In this document: piece after piece, positions 14,921 to 54,844 of the stretch
How the letters are laid out: the number at the start of each line of letters is the position of its first letter
Numbering within the stretch: the first letter of the stretch is position 1
Assembly: GCA_964502365.1 (NCBI GenBank)
Contig: CAZCWQ010000002.1
Location: 5,557 to 69,556, forward strand
Source: an uncultured Desulfobacterales bacterium
GTDB taxonomy: Bacteria > Desulfobacterota > Desulfobacteria > Desulfobacterales > C00003060
Reading direction: 5' to 3'
Length of the DNA: 64,000 nt
Notes under the pieces: model-generated
Databases searched by the model: none
The model's input: only the letters and a program-made list of their open reading frames with translations
Told to the model about the DNA's origin: nothing
Translations under genes and position numbers: made by a program

Positions 14921-16672
14921 ATGCAAAGTGCCAGAATAGCCCTTGTTGCCTTTGTGGCCACAGCTATTACCGTTGGTGCGCTCTGGTTCACCAGCCATAG
15001 TGTGACCACGAAAAAGGCAACCCAAGAGGATGTGCTGACACAAGCAAATAGGGGCGGCTATCGGATTATTAGTGTGGATGAACTATGGGAGCGTCATAAA
15101 AAATATCCCCAAGAGCTTATCTTGGTAGATACACGTCAGGAATGGGAATATCGAGCCGGACATATCAAAGGTGCCTTGAACTTCCCACTGGAACCGACCT
15201 GGTTGTCGCGATGGCGAAAAAAAGACGCGCTTGAGAGATTCCTGGGGCCAGATAAGAATCGTGTTATCGTATTTTACTGAGCTGGACTGTCATGAGTCCG
15301 CAGCGACTCAGCGGCCCGGGTGGCCGTCAAACTCGGCTACAAAAATGTTTACCGTAACCCCAAGGGCTATCCGGAGTGGTACGCCAGGGGTCTACCAATA
15401 GAAAGCGCCCCAGCATTGCCTTCTGAAAAAACTTCCAAGCCCAAACCACCCGGGCCTCTGCATGGCTGGGCCATGATCTGGACACTTCTGGGCATCTTTG
15501 TGGGAGGTATGGCCCTCAATCTGACACCCTGCATCTATCCTCTGATCCCCATCACTGTCTCGTATTTTGGTGGCCGCAGCGCCCAGAGTCAGGCCGTGCT
15601 GGCTATCCACGGTGCCTGCTACATTGGCGGTCTGTCGTTTACCAATTCTGTGCTTGGCGTGGTGGCGGCCCTGACAGGAAGTCTTATGGGGGCCATGTTG
15701 CAGAACCCTGTAGTACTCGGACTGGTGTCTGCTGTTCTGCTCTTTCTTGCCACAAGCCTTTTTGGTCTCTGGGAATTACGACTGCCAACCAGCCTGACCC
15801 GGGCCGCCTCGAGATCTTTCACCGGTTACTTTGGGAGCCTATTTATGGGTTTGACCTTAGGGGCTGTGGCTGCCCCCTGTATCGGCCCTTTTGTCTTGGG
15901 TTTGCTCACCTGGGTAGCGAGTATGGGTAGCCCCTGGTTGGGCTTCTTGATATTTTTTAGCCTGAGCCTCGGCCTGGGCCTACCCCTCTTTTTCTTGGCC
16001 ATGTTTTCAGGACAACTGGAAAAACTTCCCCGTTCTGGAGAATGGATGCTGTGGGTTCGAAGACTAATGGGTTGGATCATGGTGGGAATGGCCGTCTATT
16101 TTATCCGACCGATTGTTCCCAAGACAGCCTGGATATTTCTTTTGGCAACCATCGCTTTGACTGCCGGTTTGCATCTCGGGTGGATTGACAGGACGGGAGC
16201 CGGCCTTCGAGGCTTCAAGTTGATCAAGGCAGGTGCTGCATTGGCGGGTCTGGCCATGGCCGCTCTCCTCATGGGTTCATGGGTAATGCGAGGCTCTGGG
16301 GTCGCCTGGCAGCCTTATTCTGACCAGCTATTGTCGGAGGCACGAAGATCAGAAAAGCCGGTCATCATTGATTTCTATGCTGACTGGTGTACACCGTGTC
16401 GCGAACTGGATGATGCCACCTTTCACGATCCCACGATTGTCGAACAAGCCAGGCGTGAGTTTATAATGATCAAGGTGGACCTCACCAGAAAAGGCAATCC
16501 CTTTCACGAAGGCCTTCTTGCGAAATATGGGGTCAAAGGCGTTCCCACAGTAGTTTTTTTGGACAGTGAGGGGGTTGAACGGCAAGATCTGCGCCTGGTG
16601 GATTTCATTCCCGCGGATCGGTTTCTGAACCGCATGGCTGAGGTTAGAAATCGCCTTGACTCTGGTCCCTAG
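14921..16672 (+). CDS. Candidate selenoprotein: membrane-anchored rhodanese domain fused to a DsbD/CcdA transmembrane domain and a C-terminal thioredoxin domain, read through in-frame UGA codons at 15278 and 15293
   Basis: ORFs 14921-15280 and 15320-16672 are in the same frame and are separated only by TGA-GCT-GGA-CTG-TCA-TGA. The joined sequence VIVFY-U-AGLS-U-VRSDSAARVAVKLGYKNVY restores a complete rhodanese fold. There is no SD before GTG 15320. Downstream are DsbD-type TM cysteines (LTPCIYP, AAPCIGPF) and a thioredoxin WCTPC motif. Confidence 0.6.
15281..15327 (+). promoter_or_regulatory. SECIS-like hairpins downstream of the two UGA codons in the rhodanese loop
   Basis: Hairpin 1 (15281-15304) pairs GCU-GGACU with AGUCC-(GC)-AGC around the loop GUCAUG. 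Hairpin 2 (15311-15327) pairs GCGGCC with GGCCGU around the loop CGGGU. The hairpin 2 loop lies about 24-28 nt after the second UGA, which is similar to the fdnG geometry. Confidence 0.4.
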
Positions 16673-16696: not shown

Positions 16697-17014
16697 ATGC
16701 TGAAAGTCAGATTTTTTATGAATGAGCCCAATGGGAAGCCGTGAAAGCACTTCAAGAAGATGATGCCCAGGCTGGGCGAAAAATACGACATTGACATCGA
16801 GACAACAACTAAACCGAAAGCAGAATACACCACCGACGGGTATTTTGAACTGGACTTGCCGGTTGCGCCCGCAGTTATGGTGGGTGAAGAGATTGTGGCA
16901 GAAGGATCTGACGTTTCAGAAGAAAAACTCAAGTCGGTTATCTGCAAACATCTGGGTCTCCCACTGCCACGGACTCAAGAAAAAGGAATTATGCGTCGTC
17001 TATTGAAGACGTAA
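16697..17014 (+). CDS. Candidate small thioredoxin-fold selenoprotein (in-frame UGA at 16742)
   Basis: ATG 16697 is preceded by AAGGGGG. The translation is MLKVRFFMNEPNGKP-U-KHFKKMMPRLGEKYDIDIE...LPVAPAVMVGEEIVAEG...EEKLKSVICKHL. The beta-strand, redox site and helix layout resembles small thioredoxin/glutaredoxin-fold proteins. ORF 16760-17014 is in the same frame, and the hairpin GCCC-AGGCU-GGGC lies at 16765-16777. Confidence 0.4.
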
Positions 17015-17078
17015 ATTTCCGCAGTTGTATATCTGCTAATTGACGGGCTTGCTCCCCGTAACAGTAAGGACAGCGCGG

Positions 17079-17855
17079 ATGAGCTTGGTGACGATTAACT
17101 TTACTTCCTATCATGAATCGGTTTTCCGCGCACTCGATGACATCGGCACCAAGCACACACTCGCAAAACAGTCCGCAATCCTGATAAAACCCAACCTTAC
17201 CAATGCTTCTCGCCACCCGGTCACCACACCGGTCCAGTGCTGTGAAGCTGTGGTAGAATATGCACGTTACTGTTCAAAGGCGGATATTGTTATTGCCGAG
17301 GGCTCAGGCGATCCGTCCCTTGAAACCGACCAAATCTTCGATTTGCTTGGATATAGGAAAATGGCAACACGTCAAGGTGTTCTGCTTGTAGATTTGAACA
17401 CTGCACCACTTAAAAAACAGGAAGATAAGAAGTGCTCAGTTTTTCCGCAGATGCACCTCCCCGAAATCGCTTTCAATCATTTCATTATCTCCATTCCGGT
17501 ACTCAAAGCCCATTCTCTGGCCACCATAACCGGAACACTGAAAAACATGATGGGTTTTGCCCCACCCAAGCATTACTCAGGGCAACATGGCATCTGGAAG
17601 AAGGCAGCCTTTCATGAGAATATGCAGCAGGCAATTTGTGATCTGAACAGATACCGAAGCGCTGATCTGTCCTTGTTGGATGCCACGATTGGGCTCGCGG
17701 AACATCATCTGGGAGGGCGTCGTTGTAATCCGCCGGCGGGTAAAATAATTGCTGGATTCAATCCGTTGGAAGTGGATCGCGAGGCAGCAACTCTTCTCGG
17801 ACTCGACTGGAAAACAATTCCTCATCTCGCATCGGAAACAGAGAGAGCTTTTTGA
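17079..17855 (+). CDS. DUF362 domain protein
   Basis: The sequence ILIKPNL...VTTP...IAEGSG...ISIPVLKAHSLATITGTLKNMMG...DATIGL is the typical DUF362 pattern. ATG 17079 is in frame within ORF 17040-17855. Confidence 0.7.
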   Translation: MSLVTINFTSYHESVFRALDDIGTKHTLAKQSAILIKPNLTNASRHPVTTPVQCCEAVVEYARYCSKADIVIAEGSGDPSLETDQIFDLLGYRKMATRQGVLLVDLNTAPLKKQEDKKCSVFPQMHLPEIAFNHFIISIPVLKAHSLATITGTLKNMMGFAPPKHYSGQHGIWKKAAFHENMQQAICDLNRYRSADLSLLDATIGLAEHHLGGRRCNPPAGKIIAGFNPLEVDREAATLLGLDWKTIPHLASETERAF

Positions 17856-17975: not shown

Positions 17976-18935
17976 TCATTCGGTGCTCTCATCGCTCAAA
18001 ATGGTTCTCAGTCGGCCTGATACCCATTCGGCTTCACGATCAAAGCCGACCTTGCGATAGAAATGAAGAAGCTTGCGATAACGCTTTACAACATCGAATC
18101 CAATATTGAACTGAAGCTTGCGGAGACACACCGGGCACAGGTGGAGTGGCCTGTCGTCGCTTTCCTGTAAATGGTTGGACCCGTTCATCAGGCACTTGAA
18201 GAATATACAGTGTTCAAGCGAGAATATGTGGGCCATTTCGTGGACCAGGACTTTGCAGCTTCGGCGCAGCAAGATCTCTCTAAAGTCCTTTCCGTGCTTT
18301 TCTCCGTAAAAAGCCGGGTCATAACGGGCAAAGCTGAAAACCCCAACCCGATCGGAGATGGATGCCTGGCCGAAGACAAAATTCCACCAAGGATCAGGAT
18401 ACAGGTCATCCATTGTGACCGCCAGGGTGCAAAAGCCGTCCTTGGGAAGCCTTTTCTTAAGGAGCTTCAAGATGTCGGTAGTCAGTATTTGCCGATTCCC
18501 GGTATATCGGTTAATGCGTGTTCTCATGCTTGCCCCACCAGCACTAAGCGGGGGAAGCACAATTACATCCGTGACAAAGTAAGCGGCCGCATAGGTTCTT
18601 AATGCTTCAACCGAGGGGCTTAGCCCCTCAGGGAAAGTTCCCAACGGCTGCAAGTAGACCTTGCTCCGTGTTGGGTCCGGCTTGTTCGGATTGCACTCTA
18701 CGAATTGATCGAAGGTTTGGCCGGGCTCAGGGTGCTCAGCCAACCAATCACCCTGTTTCGGGACAGGGAGCGGTTCGAAATCGTTGACCGGGTTCAGGGC
18801 TCGCTGGAGGGTCATAGGAAGCCCCGCGGTCTTTCCGATGGCGAGGATGACCTCTGCCGGTTTTGGAGACTTGAAGTCCATAGCCAAACAGGTTGAACAA
18901 GCCACTATAGTGATAAGCTGAAGAAGGGCCACCAT
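17976..18935 (-). CDS. Archaemetzincin-like zinc metalloprotease (peptidase M54) with N-terminal signal peptide
   Basis: The sequence HEMAHIFSLEHCIFFKCLMNGSNHLQESDDRPLHLCPVCLRKL fits the archaemetzincin signature HExxHxx[GS]x3Cx4CxMx16-17CxxC. The N-terminus is hydrophobic. Confidence 0.75.
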   Translation of the reverse strand: MVALLQLITIVACSTCLAMDFKSPKPAEVILAIGKTAGLPMTLQRALNPVNDFEPLPVPKQGDWLAEHPEPGQTFDQFVECNPNKPDPTRSKVYLQPLGTFPEGLSPSVEALRTYAAAYFVTDVIVLPPLSAGGASMRTRINRYTGNRQILTTDILKLLKKRLPKDGFCTLAVTMDDLYPDPWWNFVFGQASISDRVGVFSFARYDPAFYGEKHGKDFREILLRRSCKVLVHEMAHIFSLEHCIFFKCLMNGSNHLQESDDRPLHLCPVCLRKLQFNIGFDVVKRYRKLLHFYRKVGFDREAEWVSGRLRTILSDESTE

Positions 18936-48740: not shown

Positions 48741-49102
48741 TTACGATTTCATCAATAATGGGAACACAACAAACAACATGGTAGGATTAGTGCAACTAAA
48801 CAAAAAAATCTTGACAGCGTACATGACTGGGTATAGCGTAACATATTAAAATACACAGTAATTGTGTCACATTGGACATATTTAAGCGATCTCTTCACCC
48901 TTGGCAAGACTTATAATCCTAGCCGAAAAAGACTGTGGATATTAAACTGTCGTTCTTGCATCTTGGGTATTACTCTCCATTAAGCAATTCTCTTGTCCAC
49001 AATCCCATTTCTTATTGAGAGGAGGTGAAATACAAGTAGTTCCAAGGGGACGAGGTTTCTCTGAATAACAAAAGTTTATTCGAAAGGAAGGTGAATGCGC
49101 AC

Positions 49103-52100
49103 ATGAAAGTAACACGCAGGCAATTCATGCAGATCTCTGGTGCAACGGCTGCCGGTCTTGCAATAAGCGGTCTGGGCTTTGACCTTTCGCCAGTGAGGTC
49201 ACACGCACAAATGCTCAAGACCAAGTATGCCAAAGAGACCACCACTATTTGTCCGTATTGTGCGGTCGGATGCGGTGCCATTGTACATACCAGCAACAAA
49301 GGCGACGGCCGTGTAATGAACATTGAGGGTGATCCGGACCATGTGATCAACCGTGGCTCGCTGTGCAGTAAAGGCGCAGCCCTGTCCGGACTGGCGGAAA
49401 ACACAAACAGGCTCCTTGACCCGATGTATAGAGCGCCTTATTCCAACGAGTGGAAGCAGGTGTCGTGGGATTGGGCCATGACGGAGATCGCCAAACGTGT
49501 CATGAAGACCCGGGACGCCACTTTTACCCAGAAAAATGGCAAGGGCCAGGTGGTCAACCGAACCACCGGTATTGTCTCTGTCGGAAGCGCTGCCTTAGAC
49601 AACGAAGAATGCTGGATTTACCAGGCCCTTATGCGGGCCTTGGGCCTTGTCTATATCGAACATCAGGCCCGTATCTGACACAGCGCCACTGTCGCGGCTC
49701 TGGCAGAGTCGTTCGGACGAGGTGCAATGACAAACCACTGGATCGACATCGGCAACAGCGACTGTATTCTTGTCATGGGAAGCAATGCTGCCGAGTGCCA
49801 TCCGATCTCGTTCAAGTACGTGGTCAATGCCATGAAAGAAGGGGCCAAGCTCATTAGTGTCGACCCCAGGTTTACCAGGACCTCCTCAAAGGCGGATATA
49901 TATGCGCCCTTGCGCTCGGGGACAGATATTGCCTTTCTGGGCGGAATGATCAAGTACATCCTGGACAACAAGCTCTACAATAAGGAGTATGTCCGTTCTT
50001 ATACGAATGCTCCTTTTATCGTTGGGAAGGCTTTTGGCTCTGGCATTAAAGACGGACTATTCGCAGGATACAACAAAAAGATCCGTTCCTACGACAAGAG
50101 CAAGTGGGCCTTTGAGATGGACAAGAACGGAGTCCCGAAAATGGATCGGAGCCTGAAGGATTCCCAATGCGTGTTTCAACTGTTGAAGGAACATTACAGC
50201 CGGTACGACACCGAGCTGGTTTCCAAGATCACGGGAACTCCGGAAGCCGACCTGAAGAAAGTCTATAAGACCTATGCAGCCACCGGCGCAACCGGCAAGG
50301 CGGCTACCATCATGTATGCCATGGGCTGGACCCAGCACACAGTGGGCACCCAGAACATCCGCGCCATGGCCATCATTCAACTGCTCCTGGGCAACATGGG
50401 GGTTGCTGGCGGAGGAGTGAATGCGCTTCGGGGTGAGTCCAATGTCCAGGGTTCTACGGACCACTGCCTGCTGTGGCACATTTGGCCCGGGTATCTCAAG
50501 ACTCCGAGGGCCTCGAACGTGTCTTTGGCGGCCTATAATGAAAAGTGGACACCCAAGAGCAATGATCCTTTGAGTGCCAACTGGTGGCAGAACTATCCGA
50601 AGTATTCGGTGAGCATGTTAAAATCGTTTTTTGGTGAAAATGCCGCACCTGATAACGACTTTGGATATGACTGGCTGCCCAAGGTGGACGACGGCAAAGC
50701 TTACTCGTGGCTTGACCTCTTTGATGAGATGTACAAGGGGACGGTGAGCGGCTTCTTTGCCTGGGGGCAAAACCCCGCGTGCAGCGGCGCTAACGCCGGC
50801 AAGAACCGCAAGGCCATGGCCAATCTGGATTGGATGGTCAATGTCAATCTCTTTGATAATGAGACCGGTTCGTTTTGGCACGGACCCGGGATGGACCCCA
50901 AGTCCATTAAAACAGAGGTCTTCATGCTTCCGGCCTGTGCGTCCGTCGAAAAGGAAGGCAGCATCACCAACAGCGGTCGTTGGATGCAGTGGCGATACCA
51001 GGGGCCAAAGCCCCTTGGCAACAGCAGGTCTGACGGCGACATGATGATGGAGCTTGGGTTCAAACTCAAAGAGCTTTATAAGAAGGGCGGCACGTTTCCC
51101 GAACCCATATTGAACCTCAAGTGGGACTACGTGACAGACGGCATGTATGATTCTCACAAGGTGGCCAAGGAGATCAACGGATATTTCCTGAAAGATGTAA
51201 CCATCAAGGGACAGTTGTATAAGAAGGGAACCCTGGTACCCAGCTTTGCTTTCTTGCAGGCTGACGGCTCCACCTCTTCAGGGAACTGGCTTTACTGCAA
51301 CAGTTACACGGAAAAGGGAAACATGGCTGCCCGGAGAAGCCAGGAAGATGCTGTAAACAAGATAGGGCTCTATCCAGCCTTTTCCTGGTGCTGGCCGGTA
51401 AATCGCAGAATCATCTACAACCGCGCCTCCGTCGACCTTAAGGGAGAACCGTGGGATAAGAAGGACTGGGTGATCCGGTGGAACGGGGAAAAATGGATCG
51501 GCGACGTGCCCGACGGCGGCTGGCCGCCTTTAGAGAGCCTGGAAAACCCCAACCCCAAGAGTAAGTGGGCTTTTATCATGAGGAAACACGGACACGCCCA
51601 GATTTTTGGCCCCGGCCTCGCAGACGGTCCATTCCCGGAACACTACGAACCGCTTGAGTGTCCGGTTGAAAAGAATCTTATGAACAAGCAGAGGATGAGT
51701 CCCACAGCCCCAGTCTACGGAACTGAGGCAGATGCGTACGCAACCTGCGATCCGAGATATCCCTTTGTGGGCACTACTTACCGCGTCGTGGAGCACTGGC
51801 AGACCGGTCTTCTGACCAGACCGCAGCCTTGGCTCCTTGAGATGCAGCCGCAGGTATTTGTGGAGATGAGCGAGGAGTTGGCAAAACTAAAGGGGATCAA
51901 GAACGGTGAGCGTGTATTGGCCACGTCCGCTCGTGGTTCCCTGGAGTGCACCGCGATCGTGACCAAGCGGTTCAAGCCTTTTAATATTGCAGGAAACACG
52001 GTTCATCAGGTGGGCTTCCCGTGGTGTTTTGGCTGGCGCTGGCCGGAAAATGGCAAGGAGGAAAGCGCCAATCTCTTGACGCCTTCAACCGGGGATCCGA

Positions 52101-52153
52101 ATACAAGAATCCCTGAGACCAAGGCCTTTATGTGCAATGTATCTAAAATATAG
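49103..52153 (+). CDS. fdnG: Formate dehydrogenase catalytic (alpha) subunit, periplasmic, selenocysteine-containing (UGA at 49676-49678)
   Basis: It has a Tat signal (RRQFMQISGATAAG) and an N-terminal 4Fe-4S motif (CPYCAVGCG). ORFs 49091-49678 and 49727-52153 are in the same frame. The joined sequence EHQARI-U-HSATVAAL is the canonical FDH Sec motif. Confidence 0.9.
49695..49711 (+). promoter_or_regulatory. SECIS-like hairpin downstream of the fdnG UGA
   Basis: CGGCUCU pairs with AGAGUCG (7 bp including one G-U) around the apical loop GGC. The hairpin starts 16 nt after the UGA. Confidence 0.5.
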
Positions 52154-52168
52154 AAGGAGGTGATCTGA

Positions 52169-52888
52169 ATGCCAGGCAAATCTTTTTTTGTGGATACTTC
52201 ACTGTGTACGGCGTGCAGGGGCTGCCAGGTCGCGTGCAAACAGTGGCACGGCCTGCCTGCAGAAATAACAATGAACCGTGGAACCTACCAAAACCCGGCG
52301 GATCTCTCCTTTGTGACATACAAACTTGTGAGGTTCGAAGAGGTGGTAGTGGACGGCAAGCTCAAGTGGCTCTTCTTTCCGGATCAGTGCCGGCACTGCT
52401 TGGAGCCGCCTTGTAAGATGACAGCCGATGATCCTAAAGCGATCTTCCAAGATCCGGCAACGGGGGCCGTAATCTACACGGCTAACACCAAACAACTCGA
52501 CAGCGAGGCTGTTATCGACTCGTGTCCGTATAACATCCCCCGAGCAGCCAAGGATGGAACCCTGGCCAAGTGCGACATGTGTATCGACCGGGTGGAAAAC
52601 GGGCTCGAGCCGGCCTGTGTGAAGACCTGCCCCACAGGGGCCATGAATTTTGGCGACCGGGAAGAGATCCTTGCGATGGCCAAGAAGCGTTTGTCAGTGG
52701 TGAAGAAGACGCAACCAAAGGCTCAACTTTTGGACTCTGATGACATTCGCGTCATTTATTTGGTCACTGAAACGCCGAACCTCTACTATAAGTTTGCTGT
52801 AGCCTCAAATTCGGCCTTTGACATATCAAGGGCGGTGGCTCTGAAGAGGCTTTTCAGGCCATTGAGCAGTTTGGCAGCAAACGTGTGA
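52169..52888 (+). CDS. fdnH: Formate dehydrogenase iron-sulfur (beta) subunit, 4Fe-4S ferredoxin type
   Basis: There are multiple Cys clusters (CTACRGCQVAC, CRHCLEPPC, CDMCIDR, CVKTCP). The SD AAGGAGG precedes the ATG. Confidence 0.85.
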   Translation: MPGKSFFVDTSLCTACRGCQVACKQWHGLPAEITMNRGTYQNPADLSFVTYKLVRFEEVVVDGKLKWLFFPDQCRHCLEPPCKMTADDPKAIFQDPATGAVIYTANTKQLDSEAVIDSCPYNIPRAAKDGTLAKCDMCIDRVENGLEPACVKTCPTGAMNFGDREEILAMAKKRLSVVKKTQPKAQLLDSDDIRVIYLVTETPNLYYKFAVASNSAFDISRAVALKRLFRPLSSLAANV

Positions 52889-52988
52889 ACGGCAAGGGCT
52901 TTTGACCAATAACCAAGAAGGGGAGAGGATCACTTGATCTTCTCCCCTTTTTGTGCTATGTCAAACTTGAAATAATAGGTGATATGGT

Positions 52989-53876
52989 ATGCTTGCAAAA
53001 GGATTAATGACCGCCGACAAAATTAAGCAGGCTGCAGCTGCTGTAAAGGCTTTGCGGCCTGCCTACGAAGGGCTCCTCGATTTTTATGAGAAACTTTTTT
53101 TGGCCCAGGAGGCCTCAAAGGAACAGACCCACACGGAACCTATCGATATTGCCGAAGATCTTCTTTCAGTCAAACAAGAAGAAAAGTTCCCCTTGATCAA
53201 CATGGCGGATTTTACTGTGGACATAAAGGCCTCCGAAGTATTGTTGAGGAAGATTTGCCGGTTTGCTCTTGACGCAAATGAGGTGTTGGCTGATGCTGGG
53301 CCGAAGATTGCAGATGCCCTGGACAAGGAAATGCTGGATTCTTCAGCCCTGTTTTCAAGCATCCTCAAGGAAGATGATACCTATCTGGACGATGTGGCAA
53401 GACGACTTCATGTGGACAAAAGAATCCTTACCTTTGCAGCTTACAGCAGCATCAAGCCCTCCCTTTGTATTTGTGCTGAACAGCTGGCCGCATATCTTGA
53501 CCAGGAGGCTACTTGGGAAAAGGGGTACTGTCCTATTTGCGGGAGCCCGCCGGCCCTGTCCATACTTCAGGGGGAAGGAGGGGAACGACACCTTCTTTGT
53601 AGCTTCTGTGGCCACGAGTGGCGGACATATAGGATATACTGTCCGTTCTGCGAAAACAGGGATCAAAAGACATTGCACTATTTTTTTGGCGAACAGGAAA
53701 AAGACTACCGCGTAGACGTGTGTGATAAGTGCAAGAAGTATATCAAGACGATCGATGTGAGGCAGATGAAGCACCCTGTGTATCCTTTCATAGAGCAGAT
53801 TTGCACTTTACACCTCGATATGATGGCCCAAGAGCAAGGCCTTGAAAGCGGCATTCCCCTATGGCTCCAAACATAG
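52989..53876 (+). CDS. fdhE: Formate dehydrogenase accessory protein FdhE
   Basis: It has paired CxxC motifs (CPICGS, CSFCGHEW, CPFCEN, CDKCKKY) in the FdhE arrangement and sits within the fdh operon. Confidence 0.8.
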   Translation: MLAKGLMTADKIKQAAAAVKALRPAYEGLLDFYEKLFLAQEASKEQTHTEPIDIAEDLLSVKQEEKFPLINMADFTVDIKASEVLLRKICRFALDANEVLADAGPKIADALDKEMLDSSALFSSILKEDDTYLDDVARRLHVDKRILTFAAYSSIKPSLCICAEQLAAYLDQEATWEKGYCPICGSPPALSILQGEGGERHLLCSFCGHEWRTYRIYCPFCENRDQKTLHYFFGEQEKDYRVDVCDKCKKYIKTIDVRQMKHPVYPFIEQICTLHLDMMAQEQGLESGIPLWLQT

Positions 53877-54844
53877 ATAATTACAACCGCAGGATCACCT
53901 ACCTCAGGGTCTCAGTCACAGACAGATGTAACCTGCGCTGCATGTACTGCCTGCCTGTAAAAGACCTGAAGCTCATGAATCACAGAGACATCCTGAGCTA
54001 CGAAGAGATCCTGACTGTTATTCAGGCGGCAGCTGAGGTGGGCATTAAGAAAGTGCGTCTCACAGGCGGGGAACCCTTGGTCCGCAAAAACTTTGTGCAC
54101 CTTGTCTCGTCTGTGTGCCGGATAACCGGTCTCGAAGATGTGAGCATTACCACAAATGGTGTGCTTTTATCTGAAAAGGCCCAGGAGGTCTTTGATGCCG
54201 GTGTTCATCGTATCAATGTAAGCCTGGATACGCTGAACGCTGCGAAATATGCCGAGATTACTGGGCGTGATTGCTTTGATAATGTTTGGGAAGGGCTTCA
54301 AACGGCTGAAGCCGTGGGGTTTTCTCCTATCAAGGTAAATGTGGTAGCCATGAAGGGCATAAATGATGACGAAGTCCTCCGGTTCGGCAAGCTCTCTGTG
54401 CAGAGGCCGTATCACGTTCGTTTCATCGAGTATATGCCTGTGGGACACGATAGCCTGTGGGGACCCGAGAAATACATCTCTTCAGATGAGATCAGATCCA
54501 ATCTGGAGTCCCTCGGTCGTCTCCAGCAGATACCCCGTCTTTCAGGGGACGGGCCTGCCAAGCGGTATCGCTTTGAATCAGCCAAGGGTGAAATAGGTTT
54601 TATCAGCGCCATGAGCCGCCATTTTTGTCCTTCCTGTAACAGGCTCAGGCTTACTGCTGACGGTAGACTCCGGCCCTGCCTCTTTGCCGATGACGAGGTG
54701 GACATCCTCGGCCCCCTCAGAAAAGGATGCGGCTCAGAAGATCTTAAGGCACTGTTTCGACAAGCCATTGCCAGGAAACCCAAGGAGCATCATGCCGACG
54801 CTGGAAAGGGGGGCATACGCCCCATGTCAGCCATTGGAGGATAG
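53861..54844 (+). CDS. moaA: GTP 3',8-cyclase MoaA (molybdenum cofactor biosynthesis, radical SAM)
   Basis: The sequences YLRVSVTDRCNLRCMYC, LTGGEPL and the C-terminal CxxCNRLRLTADG motif are present. Confidence 0.9.
   Translation: MAPNIDNYNRRITYLRVSVTDRCNLRCMYCLPVKDLKLMNHRDILSYEEILTVIQAAAEVGIKKVRLTGGEPLVRKNFVHLVSSVCRITGLEDVSITTNGVLLSEKAQEVFDAGVHRINVSLDTLNAAKYAEITGRDCFDNVWEGLQTAEAVGFSPIKVNVVAMKGINDDEVLRFGKLSVQRPYHVRFIEYMPVGHDSLWGPEKYISSDEIRSNLESLGRLQQIPRLSGDGPAKRYRFESAKGEIGFISAMSRHFCPSCNRLRLTADGRLRPCLFADDEVDILGPLRKGCGSEDLKALFRQAIARKPKEHHADAGKGGIRPMSAIGG

What the first reader, a model, noticed from the sequence alone, without database searches (positions are those of the whole stretch)
15272..15327. 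Two in-frame UGA codons five codons apart in the active-site loop of a rhodanese-DsbD-thioredoxin fusion (candidate U-x4-U double selenocysteine site)
ORFs 14921-15280 and 15320-16672 share one reading frame and are separated only by TGA GCT GGA CTG TCA TGA.

Reading through gives ...NRVIVFY-U-AGLS-U-VRSDSAARVAVKLGYKNVY.... This reconstitutes a complete rhodanese domain:
- The first UGA sits exactly where the catalytic Cys follows the [FY] of the central beta strand in the canonical [FY]-C-x-x-G-x-R-[ST] loop.
- The second UGA sits in what looks like a 3-residue insertion (LSU) of that loop.

Splitting at the stops would cut the domain in two, and the second piece would start at a GTG with no Shine-Dalgarno.

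The host clearly decodes UGA as Sec, because fdnG in this window has the canonical Sec codon.

Hairpin evidence:
- A GC-rich hairpin (15311-15327, loop CGGGU) places its apical loop about 24-28 nt after the second UGA. That is the same geometry as the fdnG hairpin.
- A second hairpin (15281-15304) starts right after the first UGA.

Rhodanese-type and DsbD-type selenoproteins are known families. Two Sec codons within one active-site loop, on a three-module periplasmic redox fusion, is not something I know to be described. It would imply a selenenylsulfide/diselenide-type centre fed by the DsbD electron path.

Caveat: the first UGA has less convincing SECIS geometry. It could be a true stop or a decay mutation.
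Basis: partly seen in the sequence, partly recalled or inferred. Interest (0 to 1): 0.85.

Follow-up and report, generated by a model that had tools for sequence, protein, structure and literature searches.

The report
TsoB: known two-selenocysteine rhodanese–DsbD fusion
The two in-frame UGA codons are real and almost certainly both encode selenocysteine, but the gene belongs to a family described in 2025 (TsoB, motif UxxxxU), so this is a correct rediscovery and not a new kind of protein.

Summary
TGA codons at 15278-80 and 15293-95 lie in one frame and join ORFs 14921-15280 and 15320-16672 into a 583-residue protein: signal anchor, rhodanese, 8-TM DsbD core, thioredoxin. In 162 homologous loci, 160 carry TGA at both positions, two carry TGC at one of them, and none carries TAA/TAG, although TGA ends half of this window's ordinary genes. 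The four codons between the TGAs vary only synonymously. More distant relatives have Cys at either or both positions (C-x4-C, C-x4-U, G-x4-C). Each UGA has its own minimal SECIS hairpin. H2 (15311-27) shows clear compensatory changes. H1 (15293-15310), whose 5' arm is UGA-2 itself, shows strong synonymous-site constraint.

The family is already known. [quoted passage not shown] The next gene (16697-17014) is selenoprotein TsoC. TsoA and the usual ArsR-type regulator are absent from this window.

The likely mechanism is inferred, not shown: a DsbD-type electron relay (C204/C320, then C490/C493) ending in a periplasmic U120/U125 diselenide. Novelty: already known.

The parts
14921..16672 (+). 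tsoB coding sequence (583 residues, two Sec, stop TAG 16670-72)
   Evidence: NF045694 seleno_TsoB 1002.8 bits against a cutoff of 805, residues 7-575 matching profile 3-571/572. SD AAGGAGG lies upstream of the ATG.
14936..14992 (+). N-terminal signal anchor (residues 6-24)
   Evidence: Hydropathy peak 2.13. The positive-inside pattern of the later loops places the rhodanese domain in the periplasm.
15071..15385 (+). Rhodanese domain (residues 51-155), spans both UGAs
   Evidence: PF00581 64.3 bits. Alignments to PDB rhodaneses 6mxv, 3d1p and Cdc25A.
15278..15280 (+). Sec codon 1 (U120), at the position of the catalytic Cys
   Evidence: TGA in 161/162 loci and TGC in L001. Aligns with the catalytic Cys of solved rhodaneses. 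Cys in C-x4-C and C-x4-U relatives.
15281..15292 (+). Four codons between the Sec codons (AGLS here; AGLA/AGLT in most homologs)
   Evidence: Amino acids are conserved while third positions are free (1.41, 1.88, 1.34 bits), so the stretch is translated.
15293..15295 (+). Sec codon 2 (U125), inside the 2-residue loop extension; also the first three bases of SECIS-1
   Evidence: TGA in 161/162 loci and TGC in L127. Cys in P0169, P0234, P0256 and P0252.
15293..15310 (+). SECIS-1 (H1) for UGA-1: stem 15293-98 / 15305-10, loop CGCAGC 15299-15304
   Evidence: 97.3% of cells paired in 141 sequences. Synonymous sites in the stem are constrained (0.43, 0.14, 0.86 bits against a baseline of 1.0-1.9) while the loop site is free at 1.27 bits. 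Fits the bSECIS model. No double-sided covariation was found.
15311..15327 (+). SECIS-2 (H2) for UGA-2: stem 15311-16 / 15322-27, loop CGGGU 15317-21
   Evidence: 98.7% paired. Pair 42-54 is GC 91 / AU 39 / GU 7 / CG 1 and pair 45-51 is CG 122 / UA 17. There are 57 double-change cells against 15.9 +/- 2.7 in shuffles (0/500), and the signal is lost when partners are slid.
15476..16117 (+). DsbD-type transmembrane core (Pfam 186-399; 8 TM segments 184-456) with relay Cys C204 (15530-32) and C320 (15878-80)
   Evidence: PF02683 140.8 bits. Hydropathy analysis. C204 and C320 are invariant in 112 full-length homologs.
16304..16564 (+). C-terminal thioredoxin-like domain with WCTPC (C490/C493, 16388-16399)
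   Evidence: PF13899 52.1 bits. The CxxC is invariant in 112 homologs.
16697..17014 (+). tsoC, NEPxGxxU-motif selenoprotein gene, Sec codon 16742-16744, 24 nt after tsoB
   Evidence: NF045708 152.4 bits against a cutoff of 45. The motif follows tsoB in 80/123 loci with enough downstream sequence.
49091..52153 (+). Context: fdnG with Sec codon 49676-49678, showing the host decodes UGA as Sec
   Evidence: TIGR01553 matched at 2-194 and 212-1009 by the two ORFs on either side of the TGA. Sequence.

Best explanation
Window 14921-16672 is a single gene, tsoB. It encodes a 583-residue membrane selenoprotein of the described TsoB family (rhodanese/DsbD fusion-like, motif UxxxxU). Both UGAs are decoded as selenocysteine. 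UGA-1 is served by a 6-bp/6-nt-loop hairpin at 15293-15310, whose 5' arm begins with UGA-2 itself. UGA-2 is served by the next hairpin, 15311-15327. The ribosome must therefore melt SECIS-1 to bring UGA-2 into the A site, and SECIS-2 then takes over (inferred).

Protein layout: an N-terminal signal anchor, a periplasmic rhodanese domain whose active-site loop is 2 residues longer than normal and carries U120 (catalytic-Cys position) and U125, an 8-TM DsbD beta-type core with C204/C320, and a periplasmic thioredoxin domain with C490-x-x-C493.

Inferred mechanism: as in DsbD, reducing equivalents from the cytoplasm pass from C204/C320 to C490/C493 and then to the domain that replaces DsbD-alpha. 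Here that domain is the rhodanese, whose U120/U125 pair cycles between diselenide and diselenol (or carries a chalcogen or metalloid atom) and acts on an unknown periplasmic substrate. The frequent ArsR-type regulator in homologous operons suggests a metal(loid) or chalcogen stress role.

Shown here: gene continuity, conservation of both UGAs, the SECIS elements, family membership, and conservation of all three redox pairs. Inferred: actual Sec insertion, the diselenide, the direction of electron flow, and the substrate.
For: - Both TGAs are conserved in 160/162 loci, with single TGC variants and no TAA/TAG. TGA is only 22/44 of normal stops in this window.
- The codons between the TGAs are under purifying selection with free third positions.
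- The rhodanese domain is continuous across the junction.
- U120 aligns with the catalytic Cys.
- Cys occupies position 1 and/or position 2 in distant relatives: C-x4-C in P0256/P0252/P0247/P0219/P0241, C-x4-U confirmed from L163 DNA, G-x4-C in P0169.
- H2 shows covariation, and H1 shows pairing plus synonymous-site constraint. Both fit the published bSECIS constraints.
- NF045694 TsoB scores 1002.8 bits against a cutoff of 805, and TsoC is adjacent. The review table lists TsoB as UxxxxU with 2 Sec.
- U120, U125, C204, C320, C490 and C493 are invariant in 112 full-length homologs.
- The topology puts rhodanese and Trx on the same (periplasmic) side.
- NF001419 DsbD matches residues 183-575 to profile 166-572/574.
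- fdnG and tsoC show that Sec decoding operates in this genome.
Against: - There is no direct evidence of Sec insertion (no 75Se labelling or mass spectrometry).
- No selA/B/C/D or tRNA-Sec lies in the 64 kb.
- H1 has no double-sided compensatory change, because its columns are also fixed by coding. A competing small hairpin (15284-15299) is equally pairable in the alignment.
- A diselenide has a very low redox potential (own knowledge), so its reduction by a CxxC thioredoxin domain is not self-evident.
- The nearest non-Sec full-length relative (P0169) has Gly at position 1 and Cys only at position 2. In that relative the chemistry does not need a pair, so U125 rather than U120 may be the key residue.
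- tsoA and the ArsR-type regulator, common in other loci, are missing here.
Confidence: 0.87

Rival explanations
1. Two separate genes: a truncated 119-residue rhodanese fragment ending at a true TGA stop, and an independent DsbD-like gene starting at GTG 15320. Automatic gene callers annotate it this way.
For: Public gene calls split homologs this way: most N-terminal hits are 121-139 aa and end in ...VFY, and C-terminal pieces start at VAVKLGY or MRSDSAARV.
Against: - The split would cut the rhodanese domain in two.
- There is no SD before GTG 15320.
- The frame, the 4 intervening codons and the 8 codons before the GTG are conserved as protein in about 160 loci.
- The stop is never TAA/TAG in 324 codons.
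- Cys sits at both positions in relatives.
- SECIS elements are present.
Confidence: 0.02
2. Only UGA-2 is essential as Sec. UGA-1 is a leaky or dispensable position, or the protein works through a single Sec at position 125, with position 120 only modulating it.
For: - The closest non-Sec full-length fusion, P0169, has G-x4-C, and P0234 has D-x4-C.
- The stand-alone selenoprotein forms are C-x4-U, so Sec is favoured at position 2.
- H2 has the stronger covariation support.
Against: - UGA-1 is as conserved as UGA-2 (161/162 each).
- U120 occupies the canonical catalytic Cys position.
- H1 shows RNA-level constraint at the right distance from UGA-1.
- A TGC variant exists at each position, once each.
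Confidence: 0.08
3. The rhodanese domain is not the terminal redox module. It is a chalcogen or metalloid carrier or reductase (a perselenide/persulfide carrier, or an Acr2/Cdc25-like arsenate-type reductase with an extended loop), and the DsbD part only regenerates it.
For: - Rhodanese fold with an extended loop. Cdc25-type CX5R proteins are among the PDB sequence hits.
- An ArsR-family regulator with a Cys-rich tail lies upstream in 101 loci.
- Thioredoxin reductase is nearby in 11 loci.
Against: - No substrate evidence of any kind.
- The loop is C-x6-R, which matches neither the rhodanese CX4R nor the Cdc25 CX5R pattern.
- This window lacks the ArsR regulator.
- This reading overlaps with the best explanation and does not exclude it.
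Confidence: 0.3
4. Assembly or sequencing artefact, or a decaying pseudogene.
For: Two homologous contigs (P0001/L002 and P0004) read through the region only by frameshifts. L002 is a long-read contig with indels.
Against: The same TGA/TGA arrangement occurs in 160 independent assemblies. All functional residues are intact, and the HMM match is full-length and above cutoff.
Confidence: 0.01

Closest known systems
TsoB, rhodanese/DsbD fusion-like selenoprotein (NCBIfam NF045694; Haft & Tolstoy 2025, mSystems 10:e0141724, as cited in PMC13188914)
   Same: Full-length match above the curated cutoff, UxxxxU motif with two Sec, rhodanese + DsbD TM + thioredoxin architecture, and tsoC immediately downstream.
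   Different: This locus lacks tsoA and the ArsR-type regulator that accompany tsoB in many other loci. It is tsoB-tsoC directly downstream of mgtE.
DsbD protein-disulfide reductase (NF001419)
   Same: The beta-type TM core with its two relay Cys and the C-terminal gamma thioredoxin domain with CxxC. Profile positions 166-572/574 are matched. The predicted topology is the same.
   Different: The N-terminal Ig-like alpha domain is replaced by a rhodanese domain with two Sec. The score of 243.5 bits is below the 330 cutoff, so it is not a DsbD orthologue.
Extended-loop periplasmic rhodaneses with C-x4-C or C-x4-U (e.g. P0256, P0252, P0248/L163); possibly the review's 'rhodanese form 1, UxxS'
   Same: The same 2-residue-longer active-site loop with chalcogen residues at both positions, and a signal peptide.
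   Different: They are stand-alone domains without the DsbD/Trx modules, and have Cys at position 1. Equivalence to 'form 1' was not verified.
Canonical rhodanese (C-x-x-G-x-R-[ST]) and Cdc25/Acr2 (C-x5-R) active-site loops
   Same: The fold, and placement of the first chalcogen residue after the central beta strand.
   Different: The loop here is U-x4-U-x-R-S (C-x6-R). The second Sec sits where canonical rhodaneses have the conserved Gly region.
Selenoproteins with two Sec in one redox motif (UxxU: Prx-like, metal-binding protein and FmdB-family entries in PMC13188914; eukaryotic/marine SelL with a diselenide, from own knowledge)
   Same: Two closely spaced Sec residues presumed to form a diselenide.
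   Different: The spacing (x4 against x2), the fold (rhodanese against thioredoxin-like or other), and attachment to a transmembrane electron relay.

Membership tests
TsoB (NF045694) | Whole-protein HMM score at or above the curated cutoff (805 bits) over the full length | tested here: met
   1002.8 bits, residues 7-575 against profile 3-571/572, with U written as C.
TsoB (NF045694) | UxxxxU motif: two in-frame TGA codons four codons apart in the rhodanese loop | tested here: met
   TGA at 15278-80 and 15293-95. The same arrangement is found in 160/162 homologs. The motif is as listed in PMC13188914.
TsoB (NF045694) | Rhodanese + DsbD transmembrane + thioredoxin fusion | tested here: met
   PF00581, PF02683 and PF13899 in that order.
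Tso operon (three selenoprotein operon) | tsoC (NEPxGxxU selenoprotein) adjacent | tested here: met
   16697-17014, NF045708 152.4 bits against a cutoff of 45.
Tso operon (three selenoprotein operon) | tsoA (LULAxC selenoprotein) adjacent | tested here: not met
   No LULAxC motif and no TsoA-like sequence anywhere in the 64 kb. mgtE occupies the upstream position. tsoA is present upstream in only 52-60 of about 160 loci.
Selenoprotein (general) | Cys/Sec pairs: homologs with Cys aligned to each UGA | tested here: met
   Position 1: L001 TGC, and C-x4-C / C-x4-U relatives. Position 2: L127 TGC, plus P0169, P0234, P0256 and P0252.
Selenoprotein (general) | Physical incorporation of selenium at both positions | not testable with these tools
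   Needs 75Se labelling or mass spectrometry.
Selenoprotein (general) | Host has selA, selB, selC, selD | tested here: inconclusive
   None found in this 64-kb window. Two other selenoprotein genes, fdnG and tsoC, are present. The rest of the genome is not available.
Bacterial SECIS (consensus model quoted in PMC13188914) | 3-9 nt apical loop, 4-16 bp upper stem, G in the first two loop positions, loop 16-37 nt from the UGA | tested here: met
   H1: 6 bp, loop CGCAGC, 21 nt from the U of UGA-1. H2: 6 bp, loop CGGGU, 24 nt from the U of UGA-2.
Bacterial SECIS (consensus model quoted in PMC13188914) | Structure conserved with compensatory changes | tested here: met
   Met for H2: 57 double-change cells against 15.9 +/- 2.7 in shuffles, 0/500. 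Inconclusive for H1: 97.3% paired with one-sided changes only, but strong synonymous-site constraint.
DsbD (NF001419) | Whole-protein score above cutoff, and an Ig-like alpha domain with a Cys pair | tested here: not met
   243.5 bits against a cutoff of 330. Only profile positions 166-572 are matched, and the N-terminal domain is a rhodanese.
Canonical rhodanese sulfurtransferase | Catalytic Cys followed by the six-residue loop C-x-x-G-x-R-[ST] | tested here: not met
   The fold is matched (PF00581 64.3 bits), but the catalytic position is Sec and the loop is 2 residues longer, with a second Sec.

The most novel reading that the evidence does not exclude
The decoding architecture may not have been described. 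Two UGAs only 15 nt apart are each served by their own minimal SECIS, arranged back to back, and UGA-2 itself forms the base of SECIS-1's stem. SECIS-1 must therefore be unwound before UGA-2 can be read, and two SelB-dependent events occur within five codons. This arrangement is conserved in more than 140 distinct sequences. Together with the C-x4-C / C-x4-U / U-x4-U series in the extended-loop rhodanese clade, it would make TsoB a natural system for studying closely spaced Sec insertion and a diselenide as the end point of a DsbD-type relay. I could not read the primary paper, so I cannot say whether this is already reported there.
Probability: 0.3. Interest if true: 0.5.

Novelty: already known. 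Interest (0 to 1): 0.3.

Why it matters
The practical value is for annotation. Gene callers split this gene into a 119-residue "rhodanese" and a 450-residue "DsbD", and nearly all public homologs are split the same way. It should be annotated as one two-Sec selenoprotein, tsoB, followed by the selenoprotein gene tsoC.

Biologically, TsoB is one of the few bacterial proteins with two Sec residues in one active-site loop. It appears to place a diselenide-capable centre at the periplasmic end of a DsbD-type electron relay. Its substrate and role are unknown. The tandem-SECIS arrangement gives a compact natural test case for how SelB handles two UGAs five codons apart.

Tried and rejected
- **Long hairpin 15282-15319** (MFE fold of the window sequence): its lower stem is not conserved (66.7% paired, equal to shuffles), so it is specific to this window.
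Its loop lies only 11 nt from the U of UGA-1, outside the 16-37 nt SECIS range, and it excludes H1. Not preferred, but not excluded as an alternative fold.
- **** used a structure string that was mis-registered by 2 columns. Ignore it.
- **P0001 and P0004** seemed to be read-through homologs without stops. P0001's DNA shows a long-read contig with indels that carries TGA/TGA once the frame is restored. P0002 is a deletion or chimera lacking the loop.
- **Rfam and ARAGORN** found nothing in the window. Rfam reported no SECIS family match, and no tRNA-Sec is present.
- **tsoA and the ArsR regulator** were searched for in the window with a negative result.
- **The primary TsoB paper** (PMC12013261 / 10.1128/msystems.01417-24) is not in the held library.
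It was rerun with the exact 119-residue ORF.
- **The in-frame open stretch after the DUF362 gene's TGA (17853-55)** is low-complexity sequence that overlaps an antisense gene, so that TGA is an ordinary stop.
- **Structure prediction** was not attempted.
Full report
**1. Observation**

ORF 14921-15280 has an ATG start preceded by AAGGAGG and ends at TGA 15278-80. After GCT GGA CTG TCA comes a second TGA at 15293-95. The same frame continues through GTG 15320 to TAG 16670-72. Read-through gives ...NRVIVFY-U-AGLS-U-VRSDSAARVAVKLGYKNVY.... With U written as C, Pfam finds Rhodanese at residues 51-155 (across the junction), DsbD_TM at 186-399 and thioredoxin-like domains at 462-570. GTG 15320 has no Shine-Dalgarno sequence.

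**2. Comparative evidence that both UGAs are read**

- A protein search showed that nearly all homologs of the N-terminal piece are 121-139 aa, cover about 54% of the query and end in "...VFY". C-terminal pieces begin just after the second TGA.
- I fetched DNA for 80 genome loci and 80 metagenome loci. The scans found 282 and more than 568 relatives respectively. The genome records are mostly titled Desulfobacterales, Syntrophobacteraceae, Desulfatiglandales or "delta proteobacterium".
- Translating from the conserved DTRQEWE motif, essentially every locus reads FY * AGL[A/T/S] * [V/A]RSDSAARVA...GY in one frame.
- Codon tally over 162 loci: TGA/TGA in 160, TGC/TGA in one (L001) and TGA/TGC in one (L127). 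TAA and TAG never occur.
- In this window TGA ends only 22 of 44 long ORFs, with TAA 14 and TAG 8. True stops would therefore be expected to vary, and the genome does not reassign TGA globally.
- The four codons between the TGAs keep their amino acids (AGLA 100, AGLT 50, AGLS 4, others 8) while their third positions are free (1.41, 1.88, 1.34 bits). This is the signature of translated sequence.
- The two TGC variants differ from near-identical TGA/TGA sequences by a single base, so on their own they are weak evidence.

A profile-free scan of 1.84 billion cluster representatives gave independent Cys/Sec pairs:

| Form | Examples |
|---|---|
| C-x4-C, stand-alone periplasmic rhodaneses | P0256 VYCGFVKCTRS; P0252, P0247, P0219, P0241 |
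| Ends 5 residues after a Cys | P0151, P0213, P0248 and others |
| G-x4-C, full-length fusion | P0169 FYGADLSCDRSD |
| D-x4-C | P0234 |
| G-x4-D, neither position kept | P0185 |

DNA for P0248 (L163) reads IIY-C-RSFR-TGA-LRSSIAARRAARLGY..., which confirms a C-x4-U form.

**3. SECIS elements**

I aligned 141 distinct 96-nt segments (A2; column 1 = window 15272).

- **H2** (columns 40-45/51-56 = 15311-16/15322-27, loop CGGGU) is paired in 98.7% of cells. It has compensatory changes at two pairs made entirely of third-codon positions: pair 42-54 is GC 91, AU 39, GU 7, CG 1, and pair 45-51 is CG 122, UA 17. That is 57 double-change cells against 15.9 +/- 2.7 in shuffles (0/500). Sliding the partners drops pairing to 19-55%.
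- **H1** (columns 22-27/34-39 = 15293-98/15305-10, loop CGCAGC) is paired in 97.3% of cells but shows only one-sided changes, because its columns are also fixed by UGA, Val, Asp and Ser codons.
- **Synonymous sites give independent support for H1**. Fourfold sites upstream carry 1.35-1.98 bits and Asp third positions about 0.97 bits. In the H1 stem the values are Val 0.43, Asp 0.14 (C 143: T 3) and Ser 0.86 bits. The Arg site in the loop stays at 1.27 bits, and entropy returns to 1.4-1.5 bits immediately after H2.
- **Both hairpins meet the published bSECIS model** (3-9 nt loop, 4-16 bp stem, G in the first two loop positions, 16-37 nt from the UGA). The H1 loop starts 21 nt after the U of UGA-1 and the H2 loop starts 24 nt after the U of UGA-2.
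- H1 and H2 are adjacent and fold together in this window.
- **Rival folds were rejected.** The lower stem of the long MFE hairpin is not conserved.

A consequence is that UGA-2 is the first codon of the H1 stem. SECIS-1 must therefore be melted before UGA-2 is decoded.

**4. Identity**

[quoted passage not shown] It cites Haft & Tolstoy 2025, mSystems 10:e0141724. The same table lists TsoA (LULAxC), TsoC (NEPxGxxU), TsoX and TsoY, and the text describes the "Tso (three selenoprotein operon)".
- The primary paper is not in the held library.
- The direct test is decisive. The joined protein scores 1002.8 bits against NF045694 (cutoff 805) over residues 7-575, matching profile 3-571/572.
- The gene 24 nt downstream (16697-17014, TGA at 16742-44, MLKVRFFMNEPNGKP-U-KHF...) scores 152.4 bits against NF045708 TsoC (cutoff 45).
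- DsbD (NF001419) matches only its beta and gamma parts, at 243.5 bits, below its cutoff of 330.
- The non-Sec fusion P0169 scores 802.9 bits, just under the TsoB cutoff.

**5. Anatomy and likely mechanism**

- HMMER alignments to solved rhodaneses put U120 on the catalytic Cys and show a 2-residue insertion: vfyCaglsCvrs against fyCGGG--FRS in 6mxv and fyCA--SGKRG in 3d1p. Cdc25A needs a 1-residue gap. The loop is therefore U-x4-U-x-R-S, longer than both the rhodanese CX4R and the Cdc25 CX5R loops.
- Hydropathy gives an N-terminal anchor (residues 6-24) and eight TM segments (184-456). The K/R-rich short loops (283-303, 367-381, 423-433) fall on the cytoplasmic side, which places both the rhodanese and the thioredoxin domains in the periplasm, as in DsbD.
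- In 112 distinct full-length homologs, U120, U125, C204, C320, C490 and C493 are invariant, while C233 is not. These are three redox pairs arranged like DsbD alpha, beta and gamma.
- My best inference is therefore: cytoplasmic reductant, then C204/C320, then C490/C493, then U120/U125 (diselenide/diselenol), then an unknown periplasmic substrate.
- Caveats: a diselenide is hard to reduce (own knowledge), and the G-x4-C and D-x4-C relatives show that position 2 can act without position 1.

**6. Operon context**

- The TsoC motif follows tsoB in 80 of 123 loci that have enough downstream sequence. The LULAxC motif lies about 650 nt upstream in 52 of 162 loci.
- ORF clustering finds an ArsR-family regulator with a Cys-rich tail upstream in 101 loci, the TsoA C-terminal part in 60 loci, a GcvH-like gene in 22 and a thioredoxin-reductase-like gene in 11.
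- This window has only tsoB-tsoC. mgtE lies directly upstream and a DUF362 gene downstream. No tsoA or ArsR-like gene occurs anywhere in the 64 kb.

**7. Sec decoding in the host**

- fdnG is confirmed. ORFs 49091-49678 and 49727-52153 match TIGR01553 positions 2-194 and 212-1009 around TGA 49676-78, and are followed by fdhB, fdhE and moaA.
- No sel genes or tRNA-Sec are in the window.
- The window therefore carries three selenoprotein genes with four Sec codons in total.

**8. Verdict**

The object is a member of an already described family, so novelty is "already known". The remaining interest lies in the tandem, overlapping SECIS arrangement and in the C/U series of the extended-loop rhodanese clade. 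I could not check either against the primary paper.

Noticed in passing
window 16697-17014 (+), TGA at 16742-16744: A second selenoprotein gene, tsoC (NEPNGKP-U motif), lies 24 nt after tsoB. It scores 152.4 bits against NF045708 (cutoff 45). It has no Pfam domain and no obvious signal peptide. A GC hairpin (about 16764-16777) follows the UGA.
   Followed up: partly
L163:1282-1790 (also P0151, P0213, P0231, P0253, P0258, P0212, P0251, P0245): Stand-alone, signal-peptide-bearing rhodaneses with C-x4-U (IIY-C-RSFR-TGA-LRSS...). Gene callers truncate them 5 residues after the Cys. Their best NCBIfam hit is only the TsoB N-terminus, far below cutoff. The review has no 'CxxxxU' entry, but they may correspond to its 'rhodanese form 1, UxxS'. 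In L163 the neighbours include another rhodanese, a Nitrate_red_del chaperone and an FmdE/MoCF gene.
   Followed up: partly
L165:3001-4776 (P0169): A full-length rhodanese-DsbD-Trx fusion without Sec (FY-G-ADLS-C-DRSD) scores 802.9 bits, just under the TsoB cutoff of 805. It has lost the canonical catalytic position but keeps Cys at position 2. P0185 (G-x4-D) has lost both.
   Followed up: partly
loci L003-L162, upstream of tsoB (e.g. L100:821-1298): An ArsR-family HTH regulator with a Cys/His-rich C-terminal tail accompanies tsoB in 101 loci, and tsoA (LULAxC) in 52-60 loci. Both are absent from this window, where mgtE abuts tsoB.
   Followed up: yes
alignment A2 columns 6, 21 and 48 (window 15277, 15292, 15319): The base just before each UGA is biased: C before UGA-1 (TAC 135 : TAT 9) and A before UGA-2 (GCA/ACA; 0.41 bits). 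The third base of the H2 loop is only G or T (75:71), never A or C. These may be sequence-specific SelB or decoding-context requirements.
   Followed up: no
window 49091-54844 (+): A formate dehydrogenase-N cluster: Sec-containing fdnG (TGA 49676-78), fdhB, fdhE and moaA. A stem-loop with a GGC apical loop follows the Sec codon.
   Followed up: partly
P0002, P0001/L002, P0004: Database proteins that appear to bridge the junction are artefacts. P0002 lacks the whole active-site segment (deletion or chimera). P0001 comes from a long-read contig with compensating indels. P0004 is read in shifted frames.
   Followed up: partly
window 17040-17855 (+) and 17976-18935 (-): A DUF362 gene (PF04015, 124.9 bits) follows tsoC and an archaemetzincin-like gene lies antisense beyond it. 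The in-frame open stretch after the DUF362 TGA is low-complexity and overlaps the antisense gene, so it is not a Sec extension.
   Followed up: yes
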